DNA of 64,000 nt from a virus: the IMG/VR virus record IMGVR_UViG_3300028569_002586, positions 93,012 through 157,011 of that record. One strand, written 5' to 3'. Below the pieces are notes generated by a model. That model did not search any database. It saw only the letters and a program-made list of their open reading frames with translations, and was not told the DNA's origin. The translations under genes were made by a program, and so were the position numbers. Below, piece after piece: positions 6,696 through 50,079 of this stretch. The first letter of the stretch is position 1, and each line of letters opens with the position of its first letter.

Positions 6696-7355
6696 TTAAT
6701 CTCTTTTATTCTGAGCAAACTCAACAAACTTATAAAATTCTGCTCTGGAGTTGTCATCATTATCCAGAAATGCACCAGACATGCGAGCAGTGCGCATGGT
6801 AGAGTCATGTCTGATGCCCCTATTTGAGCAACATGTATGGGCTGCTTCAATCATAACTGCCACGCCATTGTTTTTCTCACATACCAAGTCAATATAAGCA
6901 TGAATTTGCATGGTAAGATTTTCTTGCACTTGAGGTCTGCGAGCAAACCAATCCACAATTCTATTCAGCTTGCTCAAGCCAATTACCTTACCATCTGTTG
7001 ATGGTATGTAAGCAACATGTGCATACCCTGTGAAAGGAGCATGATGATGAGAACAAAGTGACGTGAGTTTAATGTTATTCTGACAAACCATGCCATCATA
7101 TTGATCCACATTTATAAAAGCAGTTACCTTGGGTGGGTTACTGTAACAGCCTGCTGCAAAGTCTTCAACAAATGCTTTTGCTACTCTATGAGGTGTGTTG
7201 GAGCTGTTGGGATCATTTCTCCAGTCATAACCCAGGGCATCCATGTATGCTTCATAGGCTTTTGCAGCTTTCTCTATGATTTCATTGCGTTCCTCCAGGG
7301 TATGTGGGTGATTATGGTTAGCGAATTGAAACTTCTTTGTGTTACTCATGAACAT
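6696..7355 (-). CDS. folE: GTP cyclohydrolase I
   Basis: TPHRVAK, SLCSHHHAPF, VIGLSKLNRIV..FARRPQVQE, HTCCSNRG. Confidence 0.96.
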   Translation of the reverse strand: MFMSNTKKFQFANHNHPHTLEERNEIIEKAAKAYEAYMDALGYDWRNDPNSSNTPHRVAKAFVEDFAAGCYSNPPKVTAFINVDQYDGMVCQNNIKLTSLCSHHHAPFTGYAHVAYIPSTDGKVIGLSKLNRIVDWFARRPQVQENLTMQIHAYIDLVCEKNNGVAVMIEAAHTCCSNRGIRHDSTMRTARMSGAFLDNDDNSRAEFYKFVEFAQNKRD

Positions 7356-8454: not shown

Positions 8455-8482
8455 TTGATTATTATTGTTAATCAGTTATTAT
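8455..8482 (+). promoter_or_regulatory. sigma70-like promoter, leaderless queD
   Basis: TTGATT-16-TATTAT-6-ATG. Confidence 0.55.
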
Positions 8483-8488
8483 GTTGAT

Positions 8489-9190
8489 ATGAAATTTACG
8501 AGTACAAAGATAATAGAATTAGGTTCATGCGCATTCAGACAATGGAGAGCAGACAGTCACTGCAAGTTCATACATGGTTACAGATTAATAGCGAAATTCT
8601 ATTTTACATGTGATTATTTGGATGAAAGAAATTGGGTAGTAGATTTTGGTGGTCTTAAGGAGCTCAAGCAAGTACTAGAGAAGCAATTTGATCATACATT
8701 CTGTGTATCAGCTGATGATCCTTTACTAGAACAATTCAAAGCTTTGCATGCTTCAGGAGCAGCAGATCTGAGAATTATGCCCAAGGGTGTTGGCATAGAG
8801 AGAACAACAGAGTGGTGTTTTGAAATAGCAGATGCACATGTGAGAAGCATTACAAACAACAGATGTTGGGTAGATAAAGTTGAAGTATGGGAGCATGATA
8901 AAAATTCTGCAATTGCAGAGTATGCTGCACCTGCAACATTCATCAATAGCAAACATGACACAAAAGTTGAAGGTAGGTTCATTGCTGAACAATATGAGCT
9001 CAAGCTTGATCAACCCACAACTCCATATGCTACAGCTGTGGGCGCACCAGCACCAGGCATTACAAAGGTTTCTGAGGGTGGTCAAATTGACAATACACCT
9101 CTAAAGAAGGATATTAAACCTGCACCCTTGTACACACAGAAGAGCAGTGGATATGGTAATCTCTTTGGTGGCACCTCCTGGGGTACATGA
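8489..9190 (+). CDS. queD: 6-carboxytetrahydropterin synthase (QueD/PTPS) with C-terminal extension
   Basis: SCAFRQWRADSHCKFIHGY, WVVDFGGLK, FDHT, VEVWEHDKNSA. Confidence 0.88.
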   Translation: MKFTSTKIIELGSCAFRQWRADSHCKFIHGYRLIAKFYFTCDYLDERNWVVDFGGLKELKQVLEKQFDHTFCVSADDPLLEQFKALHASGAADLRIMPKGVGIERTTEWCFEIADAHVRSITNNRCWVDKVEVWEHDKNSAIAEYAAPATFINSKHDTKVEGRFIAEQYELKLDQPTTPYATAVGAPAPGITKVSEGGQIDNTPLKKDIKPAPLYTQKSSGYGNLFGGTSWGT

Positions 9191-10149: not shown

Positions 10150-10155
10150 TTGGTC

Positions 10156-10893
10156 ATGGAAAAGCATATCTTTCTTAGTGATGACAAAATCTTTCATACC
10201 ATTGAAGGAGAGGGTGAGCATATAGGCAAGCCTTCTGTATTCATGCGTGTCTCTATGTGTAACCTCACGTGCAAGGGTTTTGCAAGCAAGGACTCACCTC
10301 ATGGTTGCGACAGTTTTGTGAGCTGGTCAGTGAAGAATCGAATGACATATGATGAGATTCTTGATCTAATGGAGCAAAATAACTATATTAAATTTCTAAA
10401 TAGAGGTGATATTTTAAAAATTACAGGTGGTGAGCCTCTCATACAACAGAAAAATCTCTTGGAGCTCATGAAAGCTTTCTTAGATCGATATGGTTTTGTG
10501 CCTCGCATTGATTTTGAAACAAACGCAACTCTCATGCCCCTGGAGCCTTGGTATGAAGAATATTTTGCTACATTTACTACATCTCCTAAATTATCAAATA
10601 ATGGCGATCCTGAGAATAAAAGGTACATACCTGCAACTCTTGAATGGCACGCAAAGAATGGATCAGGATTCAAGTTTGTTGTGGCCAAAGAGAGTGATCT
10701 TGATGAGATTTATACAAAATATATTGACAGATTCAACATCAAGCGTAACAAGATATGGCTTATGCCTTGTTGTGGCAGCAGAGAAGAACACATAAAGATT
10801 GCGCCTATTGTTGCAGAATTTTGCAAAGAAAGAGGATTAAGCTTTAGTCCAAGATTGCAGCTTGTTATTTGGGATAAGGCTCTTAAAGTTTAA
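10156..10893 (+). CDS. queE: 7-carboxy-7-deazaguanine synthase (radical SAM)
   Basis: FHTIEGEG, FMRVSMCNLTC...CDS, ITGGEP, ETNA, SPKL, FKFVV. Confidence 0.92.
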   Translation: MEKHIFLSDDKIFHTIEGEGEHIGKPSVFMRVSMCNLTCKGFASKDSPHGCDSFVSWSVKNRMTYDEILDLMEQNNYIKFLNRGDILKITGGEPLIQQKNLLELMKAFLDRYGFVPRIDFETNATLMPLEPWYEEYFATFTTSPKLSNNGDPENKRYIPATLEWHAKNGSGFKFVVAKESDLDEIYTKYIDRFNIKRNKIWLMPCCGSREEHIKIAPIVAEFCKERGLSFSPRLQLVIWDKALKV

Positions 10894-10896
10894 AAT

Positions 10897-11940
10897 ATGA
10901 ATATTCTTGTTACCGGTTCTTCCGGTTTAATAGGATCTGAAGTTGTTGAGTATTTCTGTCAACAAGATAATACTGTATATGGTGTTGACAACAACATGCG
11001 CAAAACATTCTTTGGTGAAAGTGGTTGCACAAATAGAAATACAAAAAGACTTAAAAAAACCTTTGATAATTTCAAACACTTAAAATACGATATACGCAAC
11101 AGAGCTAAAATTTTAAGTTTGTTTGAGGACATAAAATTTGATGCAGTAATCCATACTGCAGCTCAGCCAAGTCATGATCTTGCTGCGAGAATACCGTTTG
11201 ATGATTTTGACACCAATGCCGCTGGCACGTTGAATCTGTTGGAAGCAACCAGGCAGCATTGTCCTGAGGCTGTATTTATTCATATGTCCACAAACAAGGT
11301 GTATGGTGATAACCCCAATAAATTAGAGCTCATAGAGCACGAGAAGCGATTTGATTACAAAGATAATACCTTTCTTGGTGTACCCGAGACATTCAGTATC
11401 GATAGCTGCAAGCACTCTCTCTTTGGTGCATCAAAAGTTGCTGCAGACATTCTAGTACAAGAGTATGGAAGATATTTCAATATCAAGACTTGCTGCTTAA
11501 GAGGCGGTTGTCTCACTGGTCCAAATCATTGTGGTGTTGAGCTTCACGGTTTCCTGAGTTATCTTGTAAAGTGTAATATAACACGAAAACAATATAAAAT
11601 ATTCGGCTACAAAGGCAAACAAGTACGTGACAACATACACAGCTTGGATGTTGTGAGATTCATGGATTTTTTTATTGCTTCACCCAAAATTGGTGCCATT
11701 TATAACATTGGTGGTGGCAAACAGAATAGCTGCTCCATTCTTGAAGCTTTTGACAAAGTGGCAGGTGTTACTGGCAGGCAAATGGACTATGAATACATTG
11801 ACTGTGCCAGAGACGGTGATCATATTTGTTATTATTCTGATTTGTCAAAAATGAAAATGGATTATAAAGACTGGGATATTACTAAAAGTCTAGATGTTAT
11901 TTTTCTAGAAATAGTTAATTCACATTTGAAAAAGATTTAA
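10897..11940 (+). CDS. NAD-dependent sugar epimerase (CDP-paratose 2-epimerase/RfbE-like)
   Basis: [37 protein letters not shown]. Confidence 0.85.
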
Positions 11941-11961
11941 ACAAGATTAAATGTATCTAAC

Positions 11962-12699
11962 ATGAGAATAGCTATTTCAGGATCTGCTTGTCAAGGTAAA
12001 ACAACTTTAGTAAATGATTTTATTAAGAATTGGCCTTCTTATAAGAAATCTAATGAAAGCTACAGAAAGGTTATCAAGGAAGATAAATTAAAAATCAATA
12101 AGCAAGTCAATCAAGATAGTCAGTGGAAAATTTTAAACTGTCTCATAGATGATATTCAGAAGGCTTCAAAAGAAACACATGTCATCTTTGACAGATGTCC
12201 GCTTGATAATCTCATCTATTCAATGTGGTGCTTTGAGTCTGGTGCCTCTGATATTGACAAAGCTTTTATTGACAAATGCATTCCTCTTGTAAGTGAAAGC
12301 TTGAAGCTTATAGACATAATCTTCTTCCTGCCCATCACAAGAGTAGCACCTGTTAAAATTTCTGAAAAAGATGACCGTGAAACAGACAAAGTTTTCATCA
12401 AAGAAATTGATAATATCTTTAAAATGGTGCACCAGCAGTATCTTAAAAATGGGGGTGTTCCCTTCTTCTGCGCTGATGATAAGCCAGGCTTCATTGAGGT
12501 ATTTGGCAATCCTGAAGAGAGAATAAAGATGATTGAACTGTATCTTAATAAAGAAGGCGATCTGATTAGTGAAGAAGACAGTGTTTTGAGCCCTGAAAAC
12601 CTGGATTTAATGGAAACTCTTCTGGGAATACAGAAGAAAGCACAAGATTCAGAGAATGAAGAGAAAAGACTTAGGGACAAATTCATCTTCGGCAAATAA
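11962..12699 (+). CDS. P-loop nucleotide kinase (AAA_28/NadR-like)
   Basis: GSACQGKTT, FDRCPLD. Confidence 0.75.
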   Translation: MRIAISGSACQGKTTLVNDFIKNWPSYKKSNESYRKVIKEDKLKINKQVNQDSQWKILNCLIDDIQKASKETHVIFDRCPLDNLIYSMWCFESGASDIDKAFIDKCIPLVSESLKLIDIIFFLPITRVAPVKISEKDDRETDKVFIKEIDNIFKMVHQQYLKNGGVPFFCADDKPGFIEVFGNPEERIKMIELYLNKEGDLISEEDSVLSPENLDLMETLLGIQKKAQDSENEEKRLRDKFIFGK

Positions 12700-12707
12700 A
12701 TAATTAG

Positions 12708-12923
12708 GTGAGTAAGTTTAACGATAAAATTGAAGAACTAAACGAAGGCTTCAAATCCATTCTTTATAAAAAAAGAGAGTTTTACCCAAAGAATTTCAAT
12801 CTTTCAGAAGAGTTTGTCAAAGCCTTTAAAACAGAATACAAGAGACTACTTGATGAAGGCATAGAGCCAAAAAAAGCTCTTGTAAGACTCAACAAAGCTT
12901 TGCTATTTCACACAGCTAATTAA
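12708..12923 (+). CDS. small late protein
   Basis: TAAATA-5-GTG; MSKFNDKIEELNEG. Confidence 0.6.
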   Translation: MSKFNDKIEELNEGFKSILYKKREFYPKNFNLSEEFVKAFKTEYKRLLDEGIEPKKALVRLNKALLFHTAN

Positions 12924-13615
12924 AAGAAATATAATATTCTGTAATAGATATAATTTGCACCAAAGAGAACTGTCTTTGTATTAACTCTAAAGTTTAATGT
13001 ACCAAAATCTCCAAGAGAACTAAACGACAGTGCATCAATTCTAGGCACTGCAGATAATGGCGGTAAATCTATGCCATTAAAATTTGTACCTGCAGGTATC
13101 AAGGTGAAATGCCATGGTTGTATGGCATTTCCAACCACAGAAGGAACATTGTTAATTGCTACAGGGCTTGCTGAAGCATTTGCCAGGATTGTTACCAGTC
13201 CACTTGCTTCATATCTACGGCCAATGGCTGAAGTAGTGGCAACAAGATTGTAAAGAGATGTATACTCTGGTGAGCCAATGACAAAATCAGCTGATGTAAC
13301 AAGCCCATTTGTAAGTGTCATTCTGTTTGTATATCCAAATGCTTTGCTGTTGCCCTGGATGCCGTTAGAGAAATATGCCTGGCTGCTCAAAGCATCAACA
13401 CTTATTGTTGTGAAAATAGCATCATTACCTGTTAGTGAACCAGCAAGTACAGTGTTACCATTAATATCTTCTTTGACAACATTAAAATTATCAAACGTTA
13501 TTGTGCCTGTTCCATTAGCTGTTTGAAGAATAAGAAGATCTGTATCAAGAGCTATTTGTGATTGCGGTAGATCCTGTATATTAACAAAATTGCTATTTGT
13601 TGTATTATTTGCCAT
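12920..13615 (-). CDS. Ser/Thr-rich structural (fibre-like) protein
   Basis: TATAAATA-6-ATG; N-terminal IQDLPQ..TDLLILQT..GT..ITF fibre-type motif. Confidence 0.6.
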   Translation of the reverse strand: MANNTTNSNFVNIQDLPQSQIALDTDLLILQTANGTGTITFDNFNVVKEDINGNTVLAGSLTGNDAIFTTISVDALSSQAYFSNGIQGNSKAFGYTNRMTLTNGLVTSADFVIGSPEYTSLYNLVATTSAIGRRYEASGLVTILANASASPVAINNVPSVVGNAIQPWHFTLIPAGTNFNGIDLPPLSAVPRIDALSFSSLGDFGTLNFRVNTKTVLFGANYIYYRILYFF

Positions 13616-21779: not shown

Positions 21780-22364
21780 ATGATTATTGACCAGAAGATC
21801 TACGACGGTAACCTGATTCATTCACGATTTGCATACAAGTACTTTAAAGACCGTACGCTCCCCATTGGCAACATTGTTGTTTTCAGAGCGCCCATGAAAG
21901 TGGAAGCTGCAGGCATGATTGACACAGAAGACATTCTTAATAATGATTTCATCTACAGTGATGATGCTATTAACTTTTGCTGGGAAATTCCTAACCTGGA
22001 TCCCTTTGGTGCAGTTGCTTGGCAGAGACTTTTCAATACCCAGATAGCAAACATACTTGGCAATACGTATCTCAAAGCACCCATTGAAGTTGATGGTGAT
22101 GATTTAATTGTTCACAAGGAACACAATCAAGGTGGCATTGAGCAGAAGAAGGGCAAGTGTAGTGTCAGTATTACATATTCTAAGAACAATGTTGCTTTAG
22201 GTCATACGGGTATCAATATTGCTGCAGGCAAGAAAGCACCTGCATTTGCTTACTCTACTAATCTTACAGATGAACAAGCAACAGCTTTTATGAAGAATGT
22301 TATTGATGTATTCTATAGCTTAAATGATGACATCTTTATTGCCACCTCCAAAGTTATTGCTTAA
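21780..22364 (+). CDS. DUF366-like protein
   Basis: YDG, IVVFR.PM.V, MID.ED, QRLF, GDDL, K.SVSI, HTGINI match my recollection of DUF366. Confidence 0.65.
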   Translation: MIIDQKIYDGNLIHSRFAYKYFKDRTLPIGNIVVFRAPMKVEAAGMIDTEDILNNDFIYSDDAINFCWEIPNLDPFGAVAWQRLFNTQIANILGNTYLKAPIEVDGDDLIVHKEHNQGGIEQKKGKCSVSITYSKNNVALGHTGINIAAGKKAPAFAYSTNLTDEQATAFMKNVIDVFYSLNDDIFIATSKVIA

Positions 22365-31930: not shown

Positions 31931-33400
31931 ATGTCAAAATCTATTCGTCCTTCGCAGTCTTACATCAGTGAAGATCGCGCTAAACTATTAACAGAGAAGT
32001 GGGCTCCAGTATTGGATTACACATCTGCTAATGTTGCAGCAATCGAAGACGACCATACTCGCTTAAACACTGCTATCCTCTTGGAAAACCAAGAGAAGTG
32101 GTGCATGGAAGCTAACACTGCCGGTCCTGGTTCCACTCTTGGTTCTTGGACAGATGTTGGGAATCAGTTCCCTTCACAAAACGACAGCGGTTACGCCCCA
32201 GGTGATTACCGTCTTCCAAAGATCCTCATTCCGATGATTAGACGTACCTTCCCTGAGTTGATCACTAACGAAATCGTTGGTGTTCAGCCCATGAGTGGTC
32301 CAGTTGGTCTTGCCTTCGCCCTCCGTTATAAATACGAAGGTGCCGCTCTTGGCTCACAGATCAACAGTGGTGACGCAGCTCCTAACGTCAGTGGTCCCGT
32401 TGGTGGTCCTCAGTCCCAGTCTGATGGTGCAGAACTCGGTTATCAGTATCTAGATTCTAGATTCACTGGTACCTCTGCTTCCAATCTTTCTGGAAATGCA
32501 GACTTCTCAATGGTTGCTAGTGATCAGGGTGTTGCTCAGTTGCTTGCCAACTTTGAGCTCACATCCAAGATCCCTCAGATCGTAGTTAGCTTCGAAAAGA
32601 CAGCCGTTGAGGCTGGTACTCGTAGGCTCGCTGCCCGCTGGTCCGTTGAACTCGAGCAGGATTTGAAGAACATGAACGGTATTGATATCGACACTGAGCT
32701 CACAAACGCTATGTCTTATGAGCTACAGGCCGAAATCGATCGTGAAATGATCATCAGAATGATCCAGACAGCTCTTAACGGTGGCTTCGGCCGCGGTTAT
32801 TCTATCTGGTCTCCTGCTTCAGCAGATGGCCGTTGGTTGGTTGAACGTAACCGTGACTTCTATCAGAGACTCATCATCGAAGCTAATCGTATTGCCGTTC
32901 GTAATCGCCGTGGTAGCGCCAACTTTGTTGTTGCTACTCCTCGCGTTTGCGCAATCTTGGAAATGCTCCCTGAATTTCAGTGGGTACCAGTCCAGGGTAA
33001 CGTTAATACCCAGCCCGTCGGAGTCGCTAAGGTTGGTACACTCGCTGGTAGATTCAATGTATATCGTGACACACGTACAGAGGCACAATTTGAAGCCGCT
33101 GGTGGTGGAAACTACGCCGGAAACGCCGCAGCTCCCGTCACCCGTAATGCTCGTCTTGAGTACGCCCTATTGGGCTACAAGGGACCAGAGTTTTACGACA
33201 CTGGTATCATCTATTGCCCATACATCCCTGTCATGGTACAAAGAACAATTGGACCCAATGATTTCGCTCCCCGTGTTGGTCTCTTGACCCGCTACGGTGT
33301 TGTCGATAACATCTTTGGTGCCAACTTGTACTACCACGTTATCATCCTGCAGGGTCTCGGCACTGCGTTCCAGCCTGGATTGCAGTCTGTTTACTTCTAA
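31931..33400 (+). CDS. major capsid protein (gp23)
   Basis: KWAPVL, LLENQE, GVQPMSGPVGL.FALR, ELEQDLK, EIDRE, YCPYIP, TRYG. Confidence 0.98.
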   Translation: MSKSIRPSQSYISEDRAKLLTEKWAPVLDYTSANVAAIEDDHTRLNTAILLENQEKWCMEANTAGPGSTLGSWTDVGNQFPSQNDSGYAPGDYRLPKILIPMIRRTFPELITNEIVGVQPMSGPVGLAFALRYKYEGAALGSQINSGDAAPNVSGPVGGPQSQSDGAELGYQYLDSRFTGTSASNLSGNADFSMVASDQGVAQLLANFELTSKIPQIVVSFEKTAVEAGTRRLAARWSVELEQDLKNMNGIDIDTELTNAMSYELQAEIDREMIIRMIQTALNGGFGRGYSIWSPASADGRWLVERNRDFYQRLIIEANRIAVRNRRGSANFVVATPRVCAILEMLPEFQWVPVQGNVNTQPVGVAKVGTLAGRFNVYRDTRTEAQFEAAGGGNYAGNAAAPVTRNARLEYALLGYKGPEFYDTGIIYCPYIPVMVQRTIGPNDFAPRVGLLTRYGVVDNIFGANLYYHVIILQGLGTAFQPGLQSVYF

Positions 33401-33459: not shown

Positions 33460-33493
33460 AAAAAAGGGCCTCTTGCGGGGCCCTTTTTTTTTT
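33460..33493 (+). terminator. intrinsic terminator after gp23 (possibly bidirectional)
   Basis: A6-GGGCCTC-TTGC-GGGGCCC-T10; a second hairpin lies at 33431-33458. Confidence 0.9.
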
Positions 33494-34057: not shown

Positions 34058-34978
34058 TTATTGTCTAACTGTTTTAGTAAAGTACTTCCGCTCATCCCAC
34101 AAGGCGCTGTTCTGTTTGAGTAATTCCTGACTGCTGGCCCTGATAGGATTGATGTCAATACCACCGCGCCTCACATACAAGCAAGCCACCATCAATTCCT
34201 CTGGCTTGACCAAGTCATATAAACGCTTGTAAATGGTCTCACAAATTTCTTCATGGAAATGACATTCATCCCTAAATGAGACTATGTATTGCAGCAAAGA
34301 AGTCTGATTGAGTTCATAAGGTCCTTTGTAATGAATATAAACATCCCCCCAATCTGGTTGGGATGTGACCCTGCAATTACTCTTTAACAGGGCTGAATGA
34401 TATCTCTGCACGCGACTTGTAGTCCCATTCACCCAACTAATCAGAGAGGGATCTTCATTATAACCTCTGGACTTGATGGTCGTTACATCAATATAATTCT
34501 CCATGGTGGGGTAGTGACGAGTGGCAAACAACGGTGGGTAGTAGATTGAGTCATCAATTGCTTGAGTGAGTTGCACAGACACCCGAACATCTGTTTCAAG
34601 TAACTTGGACAAATCAGATTGCATGACTGCTTCAAGTTGCTGCAATACCCTTACAATATTACCTTGATACGTTTCCATGTTAAACGAATTCATGTACAGT
34701 TTTATGGACTTGGACTCCACAATGTACTTGTTAGTGGCAGGATAAACAACCTTAGCAATAGCAGCAATGGGCATTCCTTCGTTTGTTAGGCAAGATACTT
34801 CATAAGCATTCCAGGTATCATATCCACAGAAAGGAGGATTTTCATCACTAATGCCCAGATGCTTTCTGTTGTTAGCTCTGGGCTCGCGAACCAAGAGCGA
34901 GGGGTCATAGGTGCACTTGTACCCTGTTATTCTGCCAAGATGCTTTGATATGTTACTGTTATCTAATTCCGTGTTCAT
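34058..34978 (-). CDS. queF: NADPH-dependent preQ0 reductase (two-domain QueF)
   Basis: YDPSLL, D.WNAYEVS.L, VESKSIKLY.NSF, LKSNCRVTSQPDWG, FHEEICE, YVRRGGIDINP. Confidence 0.95.
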   Translation of the reverse strand: MNTELDNSNISKHLGRITGYKCTYDPSLLVREPRANNRKHLGISDENPPFCGYDTWNAYEVSCLTNEGMPIAAIAKVVYPATNKYIVESKSIKLYMNSFNMETYQGNIVRVLQQLEAVMQSDLSKLLETDVRVSVQLTQAIDDSIYYPPLFATRHYPTMENYIDVTTIKSRGYNEDPSLISWVNGTTSRVQRYHSALLKSNCRVTSQPDWGDVYIHYKGPYELNQTSLLQYIVSFRDECHFHEEICETIYKRLYDLVKPEELMVACLYVRRGGIDINPIRASSQELLKQNSALWDERKYFTKTVRQ

Positions 34979-35537
34979 TAAGTTTTATTTTAATAGCTTC
35001 CATGCGTTCTTCCACTGTTCCTTTTAAAATAGTTACCTTGCCCTTTAATCTTTCATCTTTAAGCCAGCAATTTTCATACGAATCAATAATTGCATCTCTA
35101 AATTCTTTATTTGTACTTCTCTCGCCATCATCCACCAAGGAAACATCATGAGGGCTTGGATAAAAAATATGATCATATCTATGAATATGATTCACATAAT
35201 ACATCAAACCAAGACTATTGGACACAGGAAAATCTTTTAACCTATTATAGGCAAAGTAGCTTGTATAAATCATACCATCCATTATGCATCTATCATGCAG
35301 GGCACCTTCAAACTTGCTCAGCTTGTAATTGAACATCAAGTTCTCAAATTCTTTATTTAATATTAGAGTTTGAGTCACATCATTTGCACCTGACTCATTG
35401 ATATCAATCCCATACTCACGGCTAATTAATCTTGTGACCTCATCCACATACCATAGCTTAGAACCATAAAATTTCTTGCACTCTTTGAGCAGAGTAGTTT
35501 TACCAGAAGACTGAGGGCCTGTGAAGGTGAACATCAT
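34959..35537 (-). CDS. P-loop nucleotide kinase (AAA_28-like)
   Basis: GPQSSGKTT, HDRCIMD, DDGERS, GTVEER. Confidence 0.8.
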   Translation of the reverse strand: MMFTFTGPQSSGKTTLLKECKKFYGSKLWYVDEVTRLISREYGIDINESGANDVTQTLILNKEFENLMFNYKLSKFEGALHDRCIMDGMIYTSYFAYNRLKDFPVSNSLGLMYYVNHIHRYDHIFYPSPHDVSLVDDGERSTNKEFRDAIIDSYENCWLKDERLKGKVTILKGTVEERMEAIKIKLNEHGIR

Positions 35538-35704
35538 TTGCGTATGTTCCTAGTATAATTGACTTCAATGTCATGTACAAGCTTTTTTAATGAACTTATT
35601 TCCTTCAGAAGTAAATGATTTTCCTTTTTGGCCAATTCAAGCTTGTTTTGAAGCTCAACAATTTCATTATTATCTACTTTGCGCAACCACTTCATTATAA
35701 ACAT
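35534..35704 (-). CDS. small coiled-coil protein
   Basis: Start reassigned to ATG 35704 (MFIMKWLRK); coupled within the operon. Confidence 0.5.
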   Translation of the reverse strand: MFIMKWLRKVDNNEIVELQNKLELAKKENHLLLKEISSLKKLVHDIEVNYTRNIRK

Positions 35705-35705
35705 G

Positions 35706-36053
35706 CTATTTGCCCCATTTGCTGTTGTATACAATTTCGGCAATAATGCAATATACTGCTGAGTCCTTGAATGCATCCATGACTGGCTCATTTGCAGTTT
35801 GAAAGGTTTGCTTTTTAAGCACAAGATTTATAAGGCGCTGTATTTTGTCATTGAGTCTCACAACTGTGGCAGAAATTGCAGCAAAACGATCTTCCTTTTT
35901 ATTTAAATCCGATCCAAGAGATATATTACCAGGACCGTAGTCGAACTGCTTTTTGCAGAACATTTCATAATGTTCGTTTTGTATTCTTTTGAACTCCTTC
36001 ACAGTTTCAGGAAAGTTCTTTTCCACATATTCAATAACATCTTCTTTATTCAC
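35706..36053 (-). CDS. nucleotide-modification-associated domain 1 (Nmad1/DUF1599-like)
   Basis: F.KKQ.DYGPGNI, RLNDKIQRL, EP..DAF.D.A.Y.IIA; GTG overlaps the guaC stop. Confidence 0.7.
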   Translation of the reverse strand: MNKEDVIEYVEKNFPETVKEFKRIQNEHYEMFCKKQFDYGPGNISLGSDLNKKEDRFAAISATVVRLNDKIQRLINLVLKKQTFQTANEPVMDAFKDSAVYCIIAEIVYNSKWGK

Positions 36054-37021
36054 AATCGTACCCCATAATGAACTGTATTTAAATTCAACGCACCAAGATT
36101 GCAACCCCCTGCATAGCTAATGGCACTCTGCAAGTCTTGTTTAATTTCTGCAAGTTTTTCAACATATGTAACAGTATCAGTCTCCATTAATTTCATAGTA
36201 CCTTCAATATTTTTCTTTTCAATTTTATTATGCACGCTGGCAGAGCCAAAGTATTGCTTGAATCGTCTGCCATTTGCATCCTTAACTAATGGTGCAGGGC
36301 TGTCTGCACATGCAGCAAATATGGAACCGCACATCACCATGGTTGCTCCTGCCACAAGAGCTTTTACAATGTCTCCATTGCAGCGTACACCTCCATCAGC
36401 AATGACAGGTATTCCTCTGTCCTTGGCACACTCCACGATGCAACTAAACATGGGATAAGTAAACCCAGTCTTGTCTTTTGTTGTGCAAGCATAACCACCA
36501 CCAATGCCCACCTTCACAGCATCTGCACCAGCACTATGCAAATATTCCACCCCCTGAAAGGTTGCAACATTCCCAGCGATAACTTTTGTGTATGGTAATT
36601 TGTTTTTGATATGAATAATTTGATCTGCTACTTTGGAATGATGACCATGGGCCACATCTATGGTTATAAAATCAACACGCAGCTGACGAGCTGCTAATTC
36701 TGTAATTATATTTGCATCTTTAGGCTGTATGCCCACACTGATGGAAATCGTCTTGAATTCACCCATCCAAGCTTTGTTATTAGCCTCTTCAACGAATTGC
36801 ATGATATCAATGCCAAACCGGTGCATAATGTAGAAATAATTTTCAAAATCTAGCATCTTGCAAACATCATAATCAATGCAGCATTTCATGTTGGCAGGTA
36901 CCACAGGCAATGCAAAAGTTTTACCGCAAAACATTACGTCTGTGTCTATTTCAGATCTAGTTTGAACAGAGTTAAAGTTTGGCTTGAGAAAGATATTCTC
37001 ATAGTGTAAGGATATGTCCAT
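36050..37021 (-). CDS. guaC: GMP reductase (short type)
   Basis: LPVVPANM, YIMHRF, ITIDVAHGH, IAGNV, KVGIGGGYACTT, IADGG, YFGSAS, DLQSAISYAGG. Confidence 0.9.
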   Translation of the reverse strand: MDISLHYENIFLKPNFNSVQTRSEIDTDVMFCGKTFALPVVPANMKCCIDYDVCKMLDFENYFYIMHRFGIDIMQFVEEANNKAWMGEFKTISISVGIQPKDANIITELAARQLRVDFITIDVAHGHHSKVADQIIHIKNKLPYTKVIAGNVATFQGVEYLHSAGADAVKVGIGGGYACTTKDKTGFTYPMFSCIVECAKDRGIPVIADGGVRCNGDIVKALVAGATMVMCGSIFAACADSPAPLVKDANGRRFKQYFGSASVHNKIEKKNIEGTMKLMETDTVTYVEKLAEIKQDLQSAISYAGGCNLGALNLNTVHYGVRL

Positions 37022-37022
37022 A

Positions 37023-37595
37023 TTACTGTTCGAGGATTTTAAATGCGGTAAAGAAACTCTTCCAGAGGTCTAATGCTGTCACACGCAAAGCACCATGCAC
37101 TTCATTTAATGTTTTGTTTTTTATATCTATGCCCTGGCTCATTAATATTTCTCCTTCATCCACCCCTGGTGTAACTCTGTGAATAACACAGCCTGCCACA
37201 TCATATCCTTCTGTAAAAGCTCTCTGTTGTGGATTAAACCCCTTCAATGAGGGGAATTTATCAATGAGCCCTGGGTGTAAATTGTAGATTTCATATTTTT
37301 CACATATTTGTTTGGGAATAATTCTCAGATACCCATGCAATGTGACAATTGGATTGTCATACCTGGACAGAACATTCTCATAGTTTGTTACACTTGGTTT
37401 GGATGGCAGATGCTGCCAGCAGTGCATCATGTTGAGTTTGGTTGCTCTGAAAGTGGTTAGCTCAACAAGCTTTGGATTAACACCATCATTATTGTGCTTG
37501 TTATGCACAACACAATCTGGGTAGACACCCAGTGCATTACTGAGATCATATATCTCAGTGCCAGTTTGAGAAAAAAAAGTTATCCAGGGTCTCAT
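37023..37595 (-). CDS. PurN-like formyltransferase (DpdN-like, predicted preQ1 formyltransferase)
   Basis: FFSQTG, LHGYLRII, YNLHPGL, GCVIHRV..GVDEG; adjacent to the dpdA-like gene. Confidence 0.8.
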   Translation of the reverse strand: MRPWITFFSQTGTEIYDLSNALGVYPDCVVHNKHNNDGVNPKLVELTTFRATKLNMMHCWQHLPSKPSVTNYENVLSRYDNPIVTLHGYLRIIPKQICEKYEIYNLHPGLIDKFPSLKGFNPQQRAFTEGYDVAGCVIHRVTPGVDEGEILMSQGIDIKNKTLNEVHGALRVTALDLWKSFFTAFKILEQ

Positions 37596-38422
37596 CTGCG
37601 AATGATCTTCTTAAACATTGTAGTGTTATACTTCACCAATGCAAGCTGATCATCTGTAAAATTGTGAGTAATGAGGTCAGCTAATTTTGTTGATGGCTTG
37701 CTATCCAGTCCATAGTCTGCATCATACTTCAATCCATGAATAGCAGCAACAATGGGATTACTGGTGTCACAACTAACAATATTGTGAACATTTTTATCCA
37801 CATAATGTCTAAACTCCCTGGCCAAGGAACAACCGAGCAGATGATGAGGCTTGTTCCAATTCCATACACCTGTGCTTATCAAGTCCTGAATAAAGCGCTG
37901 ACGACCTGAACACCATCTGTCAAGAGGGCTGCTGCCCTCGCCAGTGATCTGATAATAACTAAAATCAAAACTTATTGCGATCATGTCTGCATTATCAGAC
38001 ATGAACTTGTAGCACTCTTTGAGCTCATGCCAGTTCCTGCCCTGTACTGCACCAATGGCTTTTGTTTGAAATGTATTTCTGATGTTATCTCTCTTGTCGC
38101 TAAACTCCCTGAAGCTCTGCACAGTGCCATGCATGTCTTCCAGCACATCAGGTACAATGTACATGTTTGGCTCAATATCCAGTACAGACTTGTAAAATTC
38201 TGCAGGATCAAAAGCTTTGCCAAGCTCGAATATGGAGTTGTCCAGCAACACCTCTCTGTTGTACAGCGTTCTACTGAATTTATAGAAATTGTAATAAGCT
38301 AATTGTTCAGGTGCACCTGCATTTTGATGCAACAAATGCACCAAGCAGTAATCAAAATCATTGTATTCTTTAGAATAATCAAGTATAGATACAGGAGACT
38401 CATGAGATACTTTCATTAGCAT
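37592..38422 (-). CDS. TGT-fold 7-deazaguanine transglycosylase (DpdA3-like)
   Basis: LLDNSIFELG, IVPDV, GAVQG, IAISF, HHLLG, SCDTSNP; que-gene context. Confidence 0.75.
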   Translation of the reverse strand: MLMKVSHESPVSILDYSKEYNDFDYCLVHLLHQNAGAPEQLAYYNFYKFSRTLYNREVLLDNSIFELGKAFDPAEFYKSVLDIEPNMYIVPDVLEDMHGTVQSFREFSDKRDNIRNTFQTKAIGAVQGRNWHELKECYKFMSDNADMIAISFDFSYYQITGEGSSPLDRWCSGRQRFIQDLISTGVWNWNKPHHLLGCSLAREFRHYVDKNVHNIVSCDTSNPIVAAIHGLKYDADYGLDSKPSTKLADLITHNFTDDQLALVKYNTTMFKKIIRR

Positions 38423-38428
38423 ACATTA

Positions 38429-38456
38429 ATACTAAATGTAAATACTAATATATCAA
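38429..38456 (-). promoter_or_regulatory. sigma70-like promoter of the dpdA operon overlapping a divergent late box
   Basis: TTGATA-16-TAGTAT-6-ATG; + strand TAAATA at 38439-38444 faces gp5. Confidence 0.6.
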
Positions 38457-49620: not shown

Positions 49621-50079
49621 TTATTTATCCCAGGGAAACTCAACCCATACATCATGCTCATATTCTTTTGAGCTATAACTGGGTTTGTGTGTAGTTTTAT
49701 TCTTTGTAACAAGGCTTATTGTTGTTAGGGATATCCCTGGGTCTAGACGATGGAAATACTTCAAAAGATAATCAAAGGTATCTCCTGTATCAGAAATATC
49801 ATCTACAATAAGGACATGCCTCTTTAAATCAGATGCTTTGACAGACTGGTATACAATAAAATCTTGTTGTGTCTTTTCATCTGAATAACTTCTTATTCCA
49901 ATACTGAAAACGTTCTTAATATCAAGTTTGTATGCAAGTGAAGCAGCTAAAATTAACCCACCTCTCGATAAACCTACAATATCATATTTTTTAATATCTT
50001 TAATATCATTCTTTACTCTGTCAACAATAAAATCTAAATGAGAGTTATATTCGCTCCAAGAAATAGTGCTCTTTGCCAT
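49621..50079 (-). CDS. purine phosphoribosyltransferase (Gpt-like)
   Basis: IVGLSRGGL, VLIVDDISDTGDT, WVEFPWD. Confidence 0.88.
   Translation of the reverse strand: MAKSTISWSEYNSHLDFIVDRVKNDIKDIKKYDIVGLSRGGLILAASLAYKLDIKNVFSIGIRSYSDEKTQQDFIVYQSVKASDLKRHVLIVDDISDTGDTFDYLLKYFHRLDPGISLTTISLVTKNKTTHKPSYSSKEYEHDVWVEFPWDK

What the first reader, a model, noticed from the sequence alone, without database searches (positions are those of the whole stretch)
34058..38422. dpdA3-formyltransferase-guaC-Nmad1-kinase-queF operon: formyl-preQ1 DNA, possibly with guanine-pool engineering
Seen: one tightly packed minus-strand operon with a TGT-fold DpdA3-like gene, a PurN-like formyltransferase, GMP reductase, an Nmad1-like gene, a P-loop kinase and QueF; folE, queD and queE lie 23-30 kb away. 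Known: FolE-QueD-QueE-QueC-QueF make preQ1, and DpdA3 plus a PurN-like DpdN has been linked to formylated preQ1 (fdPreQ1) in phage DNA. Inference: guaC (GMP to IMP) inside the operon together with a nucleotide kinase and Nmad1 suggests a pre-replicative route that drains GMP/dGTP and supplies a modified dNTP for extensive G replacement.
Basis: partly seen in the sequence, partly recalled or inferred. Interest (0 to 1): 0.8.

Follow-up and report, generated by a model that had tools for sequence, protein, structure and literature searches.

The report
Phage guanine-replacement operon with extras
An uncultured T4-like phage carries a tightly packed seven-gene operon that most likely replaces the guanines of its DNA with formyl-preQ1. 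Comparison with relatives suggests, but does not prove, that part of this chemistry happens on free nucleotides, not only on finished DNA as the literature proposes.

Summary
folE, queD and queE lie 23-28 kb away. queC lies outside the window.

The core is a homolog of the Flavobacterium phage immuto cluster, whose DNA has all G replaced by fdPreQ1. The kind is therefore known.

What I could not find in the papers searched:
- A P-loop kinase sits beside DpdA3 in all 41 dereplicated relatives and in all four DpdA3 lineages.
- A nucleotide phosphohydrolase sits nearby in three lineages: MazG, HD or PRA-PH-like. A MazZ-like dGTP diphosphohydrolase occupies the Nmad1 slot in some relatives.
- Nmad1-like is fused to DpdN in some relatives, so it pairs with the formyltransferase.
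- guaC is an accessory: 16 of 41 clusters, one acquisition, three positions.

A nucleotide-pool step is plausible (about 0.5) but unproven. The main rival is that the kinase-like protein is an ATPase helper of DpdA3, like DpdB. This is a new variant of a known kind.

The parts
37592..38422 (-). dpdA3: minimal TGT-superfamily guanine transglycosylase (276 aa)
   Evidence: tblastn gives 43% identity to immuto DpdA3 and 41-43% to the Campylobacter CP220 group, E 1e-45 to 9e-55. 3077 metagenomic homologs. Atlas feature score is 0.97 to a 'queuine tRNA-ribosyltransferase/transglycosylase' cluster and 0.95 to a PF23859 DpdA cluster. Invariant D61, D92, G128, H194, G197 and D219 across 25 sequences including immuto, CP220 and phiST. 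No Pfam or PDB sequence hit.
37023..37595 (-). dpdN: PurN-like formyltransferase (190 aa)
   Evidence: Pfam Formyl_trans_N 60.1 bits. TIGR00639 PurN 57.5 bits, far below the equivalog cut-off. 44% identity to immuto DpdN. Invariant N105, H107 and D146 in 27 homologs. 4-nt overlap with dpdA3.
36050..37021 (-). guaC: type-2 (Firmicutes-like) GMP reductase (323 aa), an accessory gene
   Evidence: NF003966 332 bits (cut-off 344) and TIGR01306 293 bits. PDB 1ypf B. anthracis GuaC, E 8e-75, residues 6-319, with the catalytic-loop Cys and the YFGSAS and IEG segments conserved. In-operon in 12, upstream in 4 and absent in 25 of 41 dereplicated relatives. Forms one group in the tree.
35706..36053 (-). 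Nmad1-like / DUF1599 helical protein (115 aa), probable partner of DpdN
   Evidence: DUF1599 E 0.041. AF2 pLDDT 92.7, four helices. Atlas TM 0.91 to a DUF1599 cluster. 26 invariant residues, many charged: D38, R66, D69, K70, R73, E89, D93, D97. 3714 representatives in the family. Fusions Formyl_trans_N+Nmad1-like (P0249, P0256, P0257, P0260), one of them inside a dpdA3-kinase-queF operon.
35534..35704 (-). 56-aa coiled-coil ORF, poorly conserved
   Evidence: ORF with an ATGA overlap onto the kinase start. Only weak bZIP-like coiled-coil hits. Homologs in only 3-4 relatives.
34959..35537 (-). AAA_28 P-loop kinase-like protein (192 aa), invariably next to dpdA3
   Evidence: Pfam AAA_28 47.4 bits and phrog_2107. 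AF2 pLDDT 91. Foldseek matches deoxyadenosine kinase 2jas, thymidylate kinase 5xai and dCK, E about 1e-6, TM 0.65-0.69. Present in 62/62 loci and 41/41 dereplicated clusters. In 50,697 phage records, homologs occur only in DpdA3 phages.
34058..34978 (-). queF: bimodular NADPH-dependent preQ0 reductase (306 aa)
   Evidence: Pfam QueF_N 115 bits and QueF 82 bits. TIGR03138 259 bits, cut-off 293. 45% identity to immuto QueF.
38429..38456 (-). promoter-like site in the 35-bp gap upstream of dpdA3
   Evidence: TTGATA-16-TAGTAT, 9 of 12 matches. The overall count of such sites is not above the shuffles, so this is weak.
6696..7355 (-). folE, GTP cyclohydrolase I
   Evidence: Pfam GTP_cyclohydroI 164 bits.
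8465..9190 (+). queD (PTPS family, 241 aa, with a C-terminal extension)
   Evidence: Pfam PTPS 60 bits over residues 22-151. TIGR03367 hit.
10150..10893 (+). queE, radical-SAM CDG synthase
   Evidence: Fer4_12. Five QueE NCBIfam models, best TIGR03963 62.8 bits.
49621..50079 (-). small XPRT/HGPRT-like phosphoribosyltransferase (152 aa), possibly linked to the pathway
   Evidence: Pfam Pribosyltran 62 bits. Best NCBIfam hit is xanthine PRT, NF006613 65 bits. Homolog of the immuto PRT that lies inside its que cluster. Homologs in the phiST group and in QueC-carrying Brevundimonas phages. Within 10 kb of dpdA3 in 13 of 62 relatives.

Best explanation
The operon is the guanine-replacement module of an uncultured T4-like phage.

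Supply of the base (by homology): FolE, QueD and QueE in the window, and QueC elsewhere in the genome, make preQ0 from GTP. QueF reduces it to preQ1.

Swap and formylation: DpdA3, a minimal TGT-type transglycosylase, exchanges guanine for the 7-deazaguanine. DpdN, working with the Nmad1-like helical protein as an accessory subunit or domain, formylates the aminomethyl group to give fdPreQ1. In the homologous Flavobacterium phage immuto this replaces all G.

Inferred, not shown: part of the route runs through the nucleotide pool. The dNK/TMK-like kinase always sits beside DpdA3 and would phosphorylate a modified (deoxy)nucleoside or nucleotide. Relatives add a dGTP or NTP pyrophosphohydrolase that would keep dGTP out and supply dGMP. 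The modified dNTP would then be built in during replication, which would explain 100% replacement.

GuaC is a lineage-specific accessory. Together with the small XPRT-like phosphoribosyltransferase, it would irreversibly remove the guanine or GMP set free by the exchange (guanine to GMP to IMP). This would pull the exchange to completion and shift purines toward the A-rich needs of a genome that is 37% G+C across the window.
For: Pathway and homology:
- All genes are identified.
- DpdA3, DpdN, kinase and QueF are 43, 44, 29 and 45% identical to the immuto cluster and in the same order.
- Immuto DNA has 345,000 fdPreQ1 per 10^6 nt and no dG (PMC10516641, Table 1).

Kinase:
- It has a small-molecule dNK/TMK fold.
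- It is present in 41/41 dereplicated relatives, even where DpdN, QueF and Nmad1-like are absent.
- It is adjacent to DpdA3 in Campylobacter phages, in a different genomic setting.
- phiST has a non-orthologous AAA_18 kinase (CGPG_00066) next to its DpdA3.
- Of 284 phage records with QueC, only the DpdA3 phages have this kinase.
- Control clusters 9g and phiSM have none annotated.

Phosphohydrolases beside DpdA3:
- phiST has MazG, CP220 has an HD+AAA_33 protein, and immuto has a PRA-PH-like protein.
- A PF18909 dATP/dGTP diphosphohydrolase lies between DpdN and the kinase in L062 and L069, E about 1e-20.

Nmad1-like with DpdN: they co-occur, and fusion proteins exist, one of them in the same operon.

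GuaC: the catalytic loop is intact. It stays near dpdA3 in three arrangements after a single acquisition.

Literature: the ADG nucleoside was seen in the cytoplasm of CP220-infected cells (cited in PMC10516641).
Against: - No enzyme of the TGT superfamily is known to act on mononucleotides (my knowledge).
- The only paper on DpdA3 proposes post-replicative insertion (PMC10516641).
- Bacterial DpdA needs an ATPase, DpdB (PMC10164549). phiSM DpdA sits beside a ParB-like protein. The kinase-like protein could therefore simply be an NTPase helper.
- This genome record (74% complete) has no MazG, HD or PRA-PH gene. A dGTP-excluding enzyme is therefore not identified here.
- No homology between Nmad1-like and MazG, PRA-PH or MazZ could be shown.
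- GuaC is absent from most relatives. It also consumes the precursor pool of the pathway.
- GMP reductases occur in other large phages that have no deazaguanine genes near them.
- Nothing here measures the DNA.
Confidence: 0.5

Rival explanations
1. Same chemistry, but purely post-replicative, as published. DpdA3 swaps guanine for preQ1 on finished DNA. The AAA_28 'kinase' is an NTPase helper that makes the exchange processive or complete, a functional analog of DpdB. DpdN with Nmad1-like formylates preQ1 in DNA. The phosphoribosyltransferase and GuaC only recycle or dispose of the released guanine.
For: - PMC10516641 proposes post-replicative insertion for all DpdA families.
- Salmonella DpdA needs ATP hydrolysis by DpdB (PMC10164549).
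- phiSM DpdA is adjacent to a ParB-like, DpdB-like gene. An NTPase partner next to a DpdA is therefore a known pattern.
- The invariant DpdA3 and P-loop pairing fits a two-component enzyme.
- This genome record shows no dGTPase.
Against: - The partner has the fold of nucleoside and nucleotide kinases, not of ParB-type NTPases.
- NTP pyrophosphohydrolases, including a dATP/dGTP diphosphohydrolase family member inside the operon of relatives, have no obvious role if dGTP is needed for replication.
- The other DpdA families reach only 0.1-30% replacement, whereas DpdA3 phages reach 100% (PMC10516641).
Confidence: 0.35
2. guaC has no specific tie to deazaguanine. It is a general purine-balancing auxiliary gene, as in other large AT-rich phages, that happens to have landed in a permissive spot of this operon.
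For: - GMP reductase homologs occur in Caulobacter phage Cr30, Bacillus phage G, Xanthomonas and Stenotrophomonas jumbo phages, Thermus phage YS40 and Microcystis phage Mel-JY01.
- guaC is absent from 25 of 41 dereplicated DpdA3 relatives, from five large contigs, and from immuto and the Campylobacter phages.
- The operon also takes up unrelated insertions in relatives: radical SAM/SPASM, Ig-domain, OCD and cupin genes.
Against: - After one acquisition the gene is found at three different positions, all within about 4 kb of dpdA3. In the window it is translationally coupled to its neighbours.
- The reaction catalysed by DpdA3 releases guanine, one salvage step away from the GuaC substrate.
Confidence: 0.3
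3. The module modifies tRNA (host or phage queuosine-type tRNAs) rather than DNA.
For: The TGT superfamily is primarily a tRNA-modifying family, and FolE to QueF is the bacterial queuosine precursor pathway (my knowledge).
Against: - Three cultured DpdA3 lineages have fully modified DNA (PMC10516641).
- DpdA3 lacks the extra domains of tRNA TGTs: it is 276 aa with no Pfam TGT hit.
- The only tRNA gene in the window is tRNA-Met (CAT), which is not a queuosine substrate.
Confidence: 0.03

Closest known systems
[quoted passage not shown]
   Same: Same gene families in the same order: dpdA3, dpdN, AAA_28 kinase, queF, at 43, 44, 29 and 45% identity. Both are T4-like myoviruses. Both have FolE, QueD, QueE and QueC, plus a small phosphoribosyltransferase.
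   Different: - Immuto has no guaC and no Nmad1-like gene. It has a PRA-PH-like NTP pyrophosphohydrolase two genes upstream of dpdA3.
- Its que genes are contiguous with dpdA3, whereas here they are 23-28 kb away or further.
- Here the operon is wedged, on the opposite strand, between the major capsid gene and the gp5-like hub gene.
dADG system of Campylobacter phages CP220/CPt10 (Firehammervirus)
   Same: DpdA3 (41-43% identity) is immediately followed by a homologous AAA_28 kinase. G replacement is complete (PMC10516641).
   Different: - There is no QueF, DpdN, guaC, Nmad1-like gene or phosphoribosyltransferase.
- An HD+AAA_33 protein lies upstream of DpdA3.
- There is a second AAA_28 paralog elsewhere in the genome.
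dDG cluster of Cellulophaga phage phiST (QueD-QueE-FolE-MazG-DpdL-CGPG_00066-DpdA3)
   Same: A distant DpdA3 (21% identity in the alignment) sits next to a P-loop kinase and a MazG pyrophosphatase. The genome has a phosphoribosyltransferase homolog. G replacement is complete.
   Different: - The kinase belongs to another family (AAA_18) and is not detectably homologous.
- It has the decarboxylase DpdL in place of QueF and DpdN.
- It is a smaller phage that is not T4-like.
Pre-replicative dNTP-pool systems: T4 (dCTPase gp56, dCMP hydroxymethylase gp42, dNMP kinase gp1) and Z-genome phages (MazZ, PurZ, DatZ). Compared from my knowledge.
   Same: The logic is the same: canonical-dNTP hydrolase, base-modifying enzyme, nucleotide kinase, giving total replacement. 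PF18909, the MazZ-type dATP/dGTP diphosphohydrolase family, appears inside the operon of relatives.
   Different: - The modifying enzyme here is a TGT-type base exchanger with no known mononucleotide activity.
- No canonical-dNTP hydrolase is recognisable in this genome record.
Bacterial Dpd system DpdA/DpdB/DpdC (Salmonella Montevideo; PMC10164549)
   Same: A TGT-type transglycosylase needs a separately encoded NTPase encoded next to it.
   Different: - DpdB has a ParB fold and acts with DNA. The partner here has a dNK/TMK-like fold.
- Dpd modifies under 0.1% of G with preQ0 and belongs to a restriction-modification system.

Membership tests
DpdA3 subfamily of TGT-type guanine transglycosylases | Sequence homology to the DpdA3 proteins of phages with fully replaced G (immuto, CP220 group, phiST) | tested here: met
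   tblastn gives 43% identity to immuto and 41-43% to Campylobacter phages, over at least 90% coverage. phiST DpdA3 hits 56 of the related loci.
DpdA3 subfamily of TGT-type guanine transglycosylases | TGT (TIM-barrel) fold and catalytic aspartates | tested here: inconclusive
   No Pfam, NCBIfam or PDB sequence hit, even with a 25-sequence profile. Atlas features score 0.97 to a transglycosylase-named cluster and 0.95 to a cluster where 17% of members carry PF23859 DpdA. Invariant D61, D92 and D219 would fit the TGT aspartates, but that mapping rests on my memory. HHpred 98.8% to PF01702 is reported for the phiST protein (PMC10516641).
DpdA3 subfamily of TGT-type guanine transglycosylases | Virion DNA with complete replacement of G by a 7-deazaguanine | not testable with these tools
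DpdN (preQ1/dPreQ1 formyltransferase, PurN superfamily) | Formyl_trans_N domain, a conserved Asn-x-His...Asp triad, homology to immuto DpdN, and position next to dpdA3 with a full FolE-QueF pathway | tested here: met
   Pfam 60.1 bits. Invariant N105, H107 and D146. 44% identity to immuto DpdN. 4-nt overlap with dpdA3. Pathway genes found. Formylation activity itself has never been shown for any DpdN (PMC10516641).
GMP reductase GuaC, type 2 | Score above the NCBIfam equivalog cut-off | tested here: not met
   NF003966 scores 332 bits against a cut-off of 344. TIGR01306 scores 293 against 466. This is a near miss. GMP reductase models are clearly the best, ahead of IMPDH models at about 155 bits.
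GMP reductase GuaC, type 2 | Full-length similarity to a solved GuaC, no CBS domain, catalytic-loop cysteine | tested here: met
   1ypf E 8e-75, residues 6-319 of 323. The loop reads GIGGGYACTT, against GIGPGKVCIT in 1ypf.
DUF1599 / Nmad1 (PF07659) | Pfam score above the gathering cut-off | tested here: not met
   14.7 bits against a cut-off of 25 for the window protein. Family members found with its profile do reach the cut-off: P0304 26.3 and P0360 25.0.
DUF1599 / Nmad1 (PF07659) | Same fold and detectable homology to annotated members | tested here: met
   Atlas TM 0.91, 113 residues aligned, rmsd 1.2, to a cluster where 16% of members carry DUF1599. tblastn E 7e-5 to annotated DUF1599 proteins of crAss-like phages.
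AAA_28 / dNK-TMK-like small-molecule kinases | P-loop, Pfam score above cut-off, and kinase fold with a lid | tested here: met
   AAA_28 47.4 bits against 27. Invariant G12-K13-T15, D82-R83 and R140. Foldseek probability 1.00 to dAK, TMK and dCK, TM 0.65-0.69. The phosphate acceptor is not known.
Pre-replicative dNTP-pool replacement systems (T4 or Z-genome type) | A hydrolase that removes the canonical dNTP | tested here: not met
   No MazG, HD or PRA-PH in the 157-kb record, which is 74% complete. PF18909 was not searched in the window's own genome. Such hydrolases are present in relatives and in the other DpdA3 lineages.
Pre-replicative dNTP-pool replacement systems (T4 or Z-genome type) | Modifying enzyme acts on a mononucleotide, and a kinase re-phosphorylates the product | not testable with these tools
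   Only gene linkage and fold are available.

The most novel reading that the evidence does not exclude
DpdA3 systems are not post-replicative. DpdA3 exchanges the base on a free deoxynucleoside or deoxynucleotide, which would be the first TGT-family enzyme with a small-molecule substrate. Its obligate kinase partner and host enzymes raise the product to the triphosphate, and a dGTP-directed hydrolase excludes dGTP. This would give 100% replacement in the Campylobacter, Cellulophaga and Flavobacterium phages and in this large metagenomic clade. GuaC plus the XPRT-like enzyme would act as a guanine sink that drives the exchange.
Probability: 0.3. Interest if true: 0.85.

Novelty: new variant of a known kind. 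Interest (0 to 1): 0.6.

Why it matters
How some phages replace every guanine with a 7-deazaguanine is unresolved. The published model, a DNA transglycosylase working after replication, has not been reconstituted for DpdA3.

The comparative pattern found here gives concrete proteins to assay. It consists of an invariant DpdA3-kinase pair, nearby NTP pyrophosphohydrolases, DpdN-Nmad1 fusions and an optional guaC. It turns 'pre-replicative or post-replicative?' into a simple in vitro question.

It also gives the widespread DUF1599/Nmad1 family its first specific partner, a formyltransferase. The DpdA3 family has more than 3000 protein clusters in metagenomes.

Fully modified DNA of this kind resists many restriction enzymes. 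It is also of interest as a source of enzymes for making modified nucleotides.

Tried and rejected
- Megablast of the operon against 50,697 phage records found no match.
- DpdA3 alone and as a 25-sequence profile against PDB sequences gave nothing.
- Foldseek and VIA-align of the Nmad1-like model against PDB gave only generic helical hairpins, Z at most 7.3. MazG-like entries (2a3q, 2p06) appeared only at E about 3-4. I therefore claim no fold relation to MazG.
- hhalign of the Nmad1-like profile against immuto PRA-PH-like, phiST MazG, a PF18909 protein and a 30-sequence PF18909 profile was not significant (best E 0.034, probability 1.5%). It aligned only a short 'DYG..N...G' stretch. I dropped the idea that Nmad1-like is a cryptic dGTP pyrophosphatase. 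The DpdN fusions point elsewhere.
- hhalign of the kinase profile against phiST CGPG_00066 aligned only the P-loop region. I treat the two as analogous, not orthologous.
- Complex prediction of DpdN with Nmad1-like gave no verdict, score 0.00. I do not use it either way.
- A scan of genome contigs for cellular relatives of GuaC confirmed no hits. The protein search returned only the phage clade among the 120 hits listed. The GuaC tree therefore has only five outgroups taken from phage records.
I had hoped to look for run-level signs of modified G.
- I considered a split or frameshifted gene across 35534-36104, because phrog_1485 has length 238. I rejected it: relatives have the 115-aa protein as a complete ORF with the same start and stop.
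- I considered tRNA modification as the target and rejected it (see rivals).

Full report
**What is there.** The window is the last 64 kb of a 157-kb IMG/VR virus record, estimated 74% complete. The phage is T4-like: its Gp23 capsid protein is at 31931-33400.

Between the capsid gene and a gp5-like hub gene, on the opposite strand, lie seven ORFs from 38422 down to 34058. They overlap or are separated by one base.
- DpdA3-like, 276 aa.
- A PurN-like formyltransferase, 190 aa.
- A GMP reductase, 323 aa.
- A 115-aa helical protein.
- An AAA_28 P-loop kinase, 192 aa.
- A bimodular QueF, 306 aa.

queC is outside the window at genome 81295-81930.

**Identity of the core.** No phage record is similar at the DNA level. 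At the protein level, DpdA3 matches only Flavobacterium phage immuto (43%) and the Campylobacter CP220 group (41-43%).

Immuto has the same gene order, dpdA3-(small ORF)-dpdN-kinase-queF. Its DNA carries fdPreQ1 in place of all G (PMC10516641). DpdN keeps the invariant Asn-x-His and Asp of PurN-type enzymes.

Reading the operon as an fdPreQ1-type guanine-replacement module is therefore well grounded by homology. Nothing here measures the DNA. The family is large: 3077 protein clusters at E below 1e-5, many on contigs of 100-230 kb.

**Comparative anatomy.** I fetched 80 related IMG/VR loci with 10-kb flanks and mapped the window's proteins onto them. I then dereplicated them at 90% DpdA3 identity. 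Among 41 clusters with enough downstream sequence:

| Gene | Clusters (of 41) |
|---|---|
| Kinase following DpdA3 | 41 |
| QueF | 38 |
| DpdN | 35 |
| Nmad1-like | 34 |
| guaC inside the operon | 12 |
| guaC upstream, within about 4 kb | 4 |
| guaC absent | 25 |

Some relatives consist of DpdA3 plus the kinase only. Five large contigs without a nearby guaC have none anywhere. Immuto and the Campylobacter phages also lack it.

**The kinase.**
- Its AF2 model (pLDDT 91) resembles deoxynucleoside kinases and thymidylate kinases, with Foldseek E about 1e-6 and TM 0.65-0.69.
- In 50,697 phage records its homologs occur only in DpdA3 phages, although 284 records carry QueC.
- In CP220 and its relatives it is the gene right after DpdA3, in a different genomic setting among tail genes.
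- In phiST, CGPG_00066, the gene next to DpdA3, is an AAA_18 kinase-family protein (29.8 bits against a cut-off of 29.4). The 2023 paper left it without an assigned function.
- All four DpdA3 lineages therefore pair the transglycosylase with a P-loop kinase-like protein. I found no discussion of this: 'kinase' has 0 occurrences in PMC10516641.

**Phosphohydrolases.**
- Next to or near DpdA3 are a MazG in phiST, an HD+AAA_33 protein in CP220 and a PRA-PH-like protein in immuto.
- In clade members that lack Nmad1-like (L062, L069), the slot between DpdN and the kinase holds a PF18909 'dATP/dGTP diphosphohydrolase' protein, E about 1e-20.
- L059 and L063 add a HIT protein after DpdA3.
- The window's own genome shows no MazG, HD or PRA-PH.

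**Nmad1-like.**
- The label is right at family level.
- No solved structure resembles it convincingly, and no relation to MazG-type enzymes could be shown.
- A profile search found 3714 representatives. Several are fusions of a DpdN-like formyltransferase domain with a C-terminal Nmad1-like domain.
- One fusion (P0257) sits between a 280-aa DpdA3-position gene and AAA_28 kinase-QueF, opposite a Gp23 gene. That is the same operon.
- With the co-occurrence of the two genes, this makes Nmad1-like the probable partner or substrate-binding module of DpdN. It does not look like a guanine-pool enzyme.

**GuaC.**
- It is a full-length type-2 GMP reductase with the catalytic loop intact.
- In a tree with five outgroups, all GuaCs of the clade form one group (99/98). 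Each of the three positional classes is monophyletic. This fits one acquisition followed by relocation near dpdA3 and repeated loss. The outgroup sampling is thin.
- guaC is thus linked to dpdA3 more than chance placement would suggest, but it is dispensable.
- GMP reductases also occur in other large phages that have no deazaguanine genes near them.
- A small XPRT/HGPRT-like phosphoribosyltransferase (window 49621-50079) has homologs in immuto (inside its que cluster), in the phiST group and in QueC-carrying Brevundimonas phages, but not in CP220.
- My inference: the phosphoribosyltransferase and GuaC turn the guanine released by DpdA3 into GMP and then IMP, removing the product of the exchange.

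**Mechanism.**
- Shown by homology: the enzymes that make preQ1, swap it for guanine and formylate it.
- Inferred: that the route runs partly through the nucleotide pool. The grounds are the kinase fold, the invariant pairing, the neighbouring NTP hydrolases, 100% replacement in cultured DpdA3 phages, and the ADG nucleoside reported in infected cells.
- The main rival is that the kinase-like protein is an ATPase helper. Bacterial DpdA needs DpdB, and phiSM DpdA sits beside a ParB-like gene.
- I put the nucleotide-pool version at about 0.5 and the purely post-replicative version at about 0.35.

**Verdict.** This is a real, well-delimited operon of a known kind with new accessories. The comparative pattern questions the published mechanism for DpdA3. 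It is a new variant of a known kind, with interest 0.6.

Noticed in passing
L004:12566-13891 and L010:13446-14765 (also L005, L055): A radical SAM protein of about 440 aa, with a SPASM domain at its N-terminus, is inserted between the kinase and queF in some relatives. It may make a further deazaguanine hypermodification.
   Followed up: partly
L059:9395-10321, L063:11906-12826; L059:5800-6165: In two relatives an ornithine cyclodeaminase/mu-crystallin family NAD(P)-enzyme occupies the slot where guaC sits in the window. A HIT-family nucleotide hydrolase/transferase follows DpdA3.
   Followed up: partly
L062:11586-11951, L069:11801-12175: PF18909 (MazZ-type dATP/dGTP diphosphohydrolase, also called DUF5664) proteins lie between dpdN and the kinase in relatives that lack Nmad1-like.
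   Followed up: partly
L087:8382-8861 (Cellulophaga phage phiST CGPG_00066): This gene next to phiST DpdA3 has no assigned function in the 2023 paper. It scores as an AAA_18 P-loop kinase-family protein (29.8 bits, cut-off 29.4).
   Followed up: partly
L083:5868-6899 (CP220 gp055) and NC_027997.1 5425-5937: CP220 has an HD phosphohydrolase fused to an AAA_33 kinase domain just upstream of DpdA3. It also has a second AAA_28 kinase paralog far from DpdA3.
   Followed up: no
L086:7791-8345 and 11832-12929 (Microcystis phage Mel-JY01): This is the closest cultured-phage homolog of Nmad1-like (40% identity). It sits in a replication module about 3.5 kb from a GuaB/GMP-reductase-like gene, in a phage where the DpdA3 search found no homolog.
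   Followed up: no
window 8465-9190: QueD is 241 aa. The PTPS domain covers only residues 22-151, leaving an unexplained C-terminal extension of about 90 residues.
   Followed up: no
window 33460-33489: A strong 13-bp-stem hairpin flanked by A and T runs, a bidirectional terminator-like site, lies just after the major capsid gene.
   Followed up: no
window 21780-22364: The ORF that earlier notes call DUF366-like has no NCBIfam hit. The 'missing queC' that motivated those notes is present elsewhere in the genome (81295-81930).
   Followed up: partly
window 61387-61461: The only tRNA gene in the window is a single tRNA-Met (CAT), on the minus strand.
   Followed up: no
L061:6974-7423: A cupin-domain protein is inserted between dpdA3 and dpdN in one relative (two loci).
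   Followed up: no
P0298: One Nmad1-like family member is fused to an N-terminal NUDIX hydrolase domain, a second kind of fusion besides those with DpdN.
   Followed up: no
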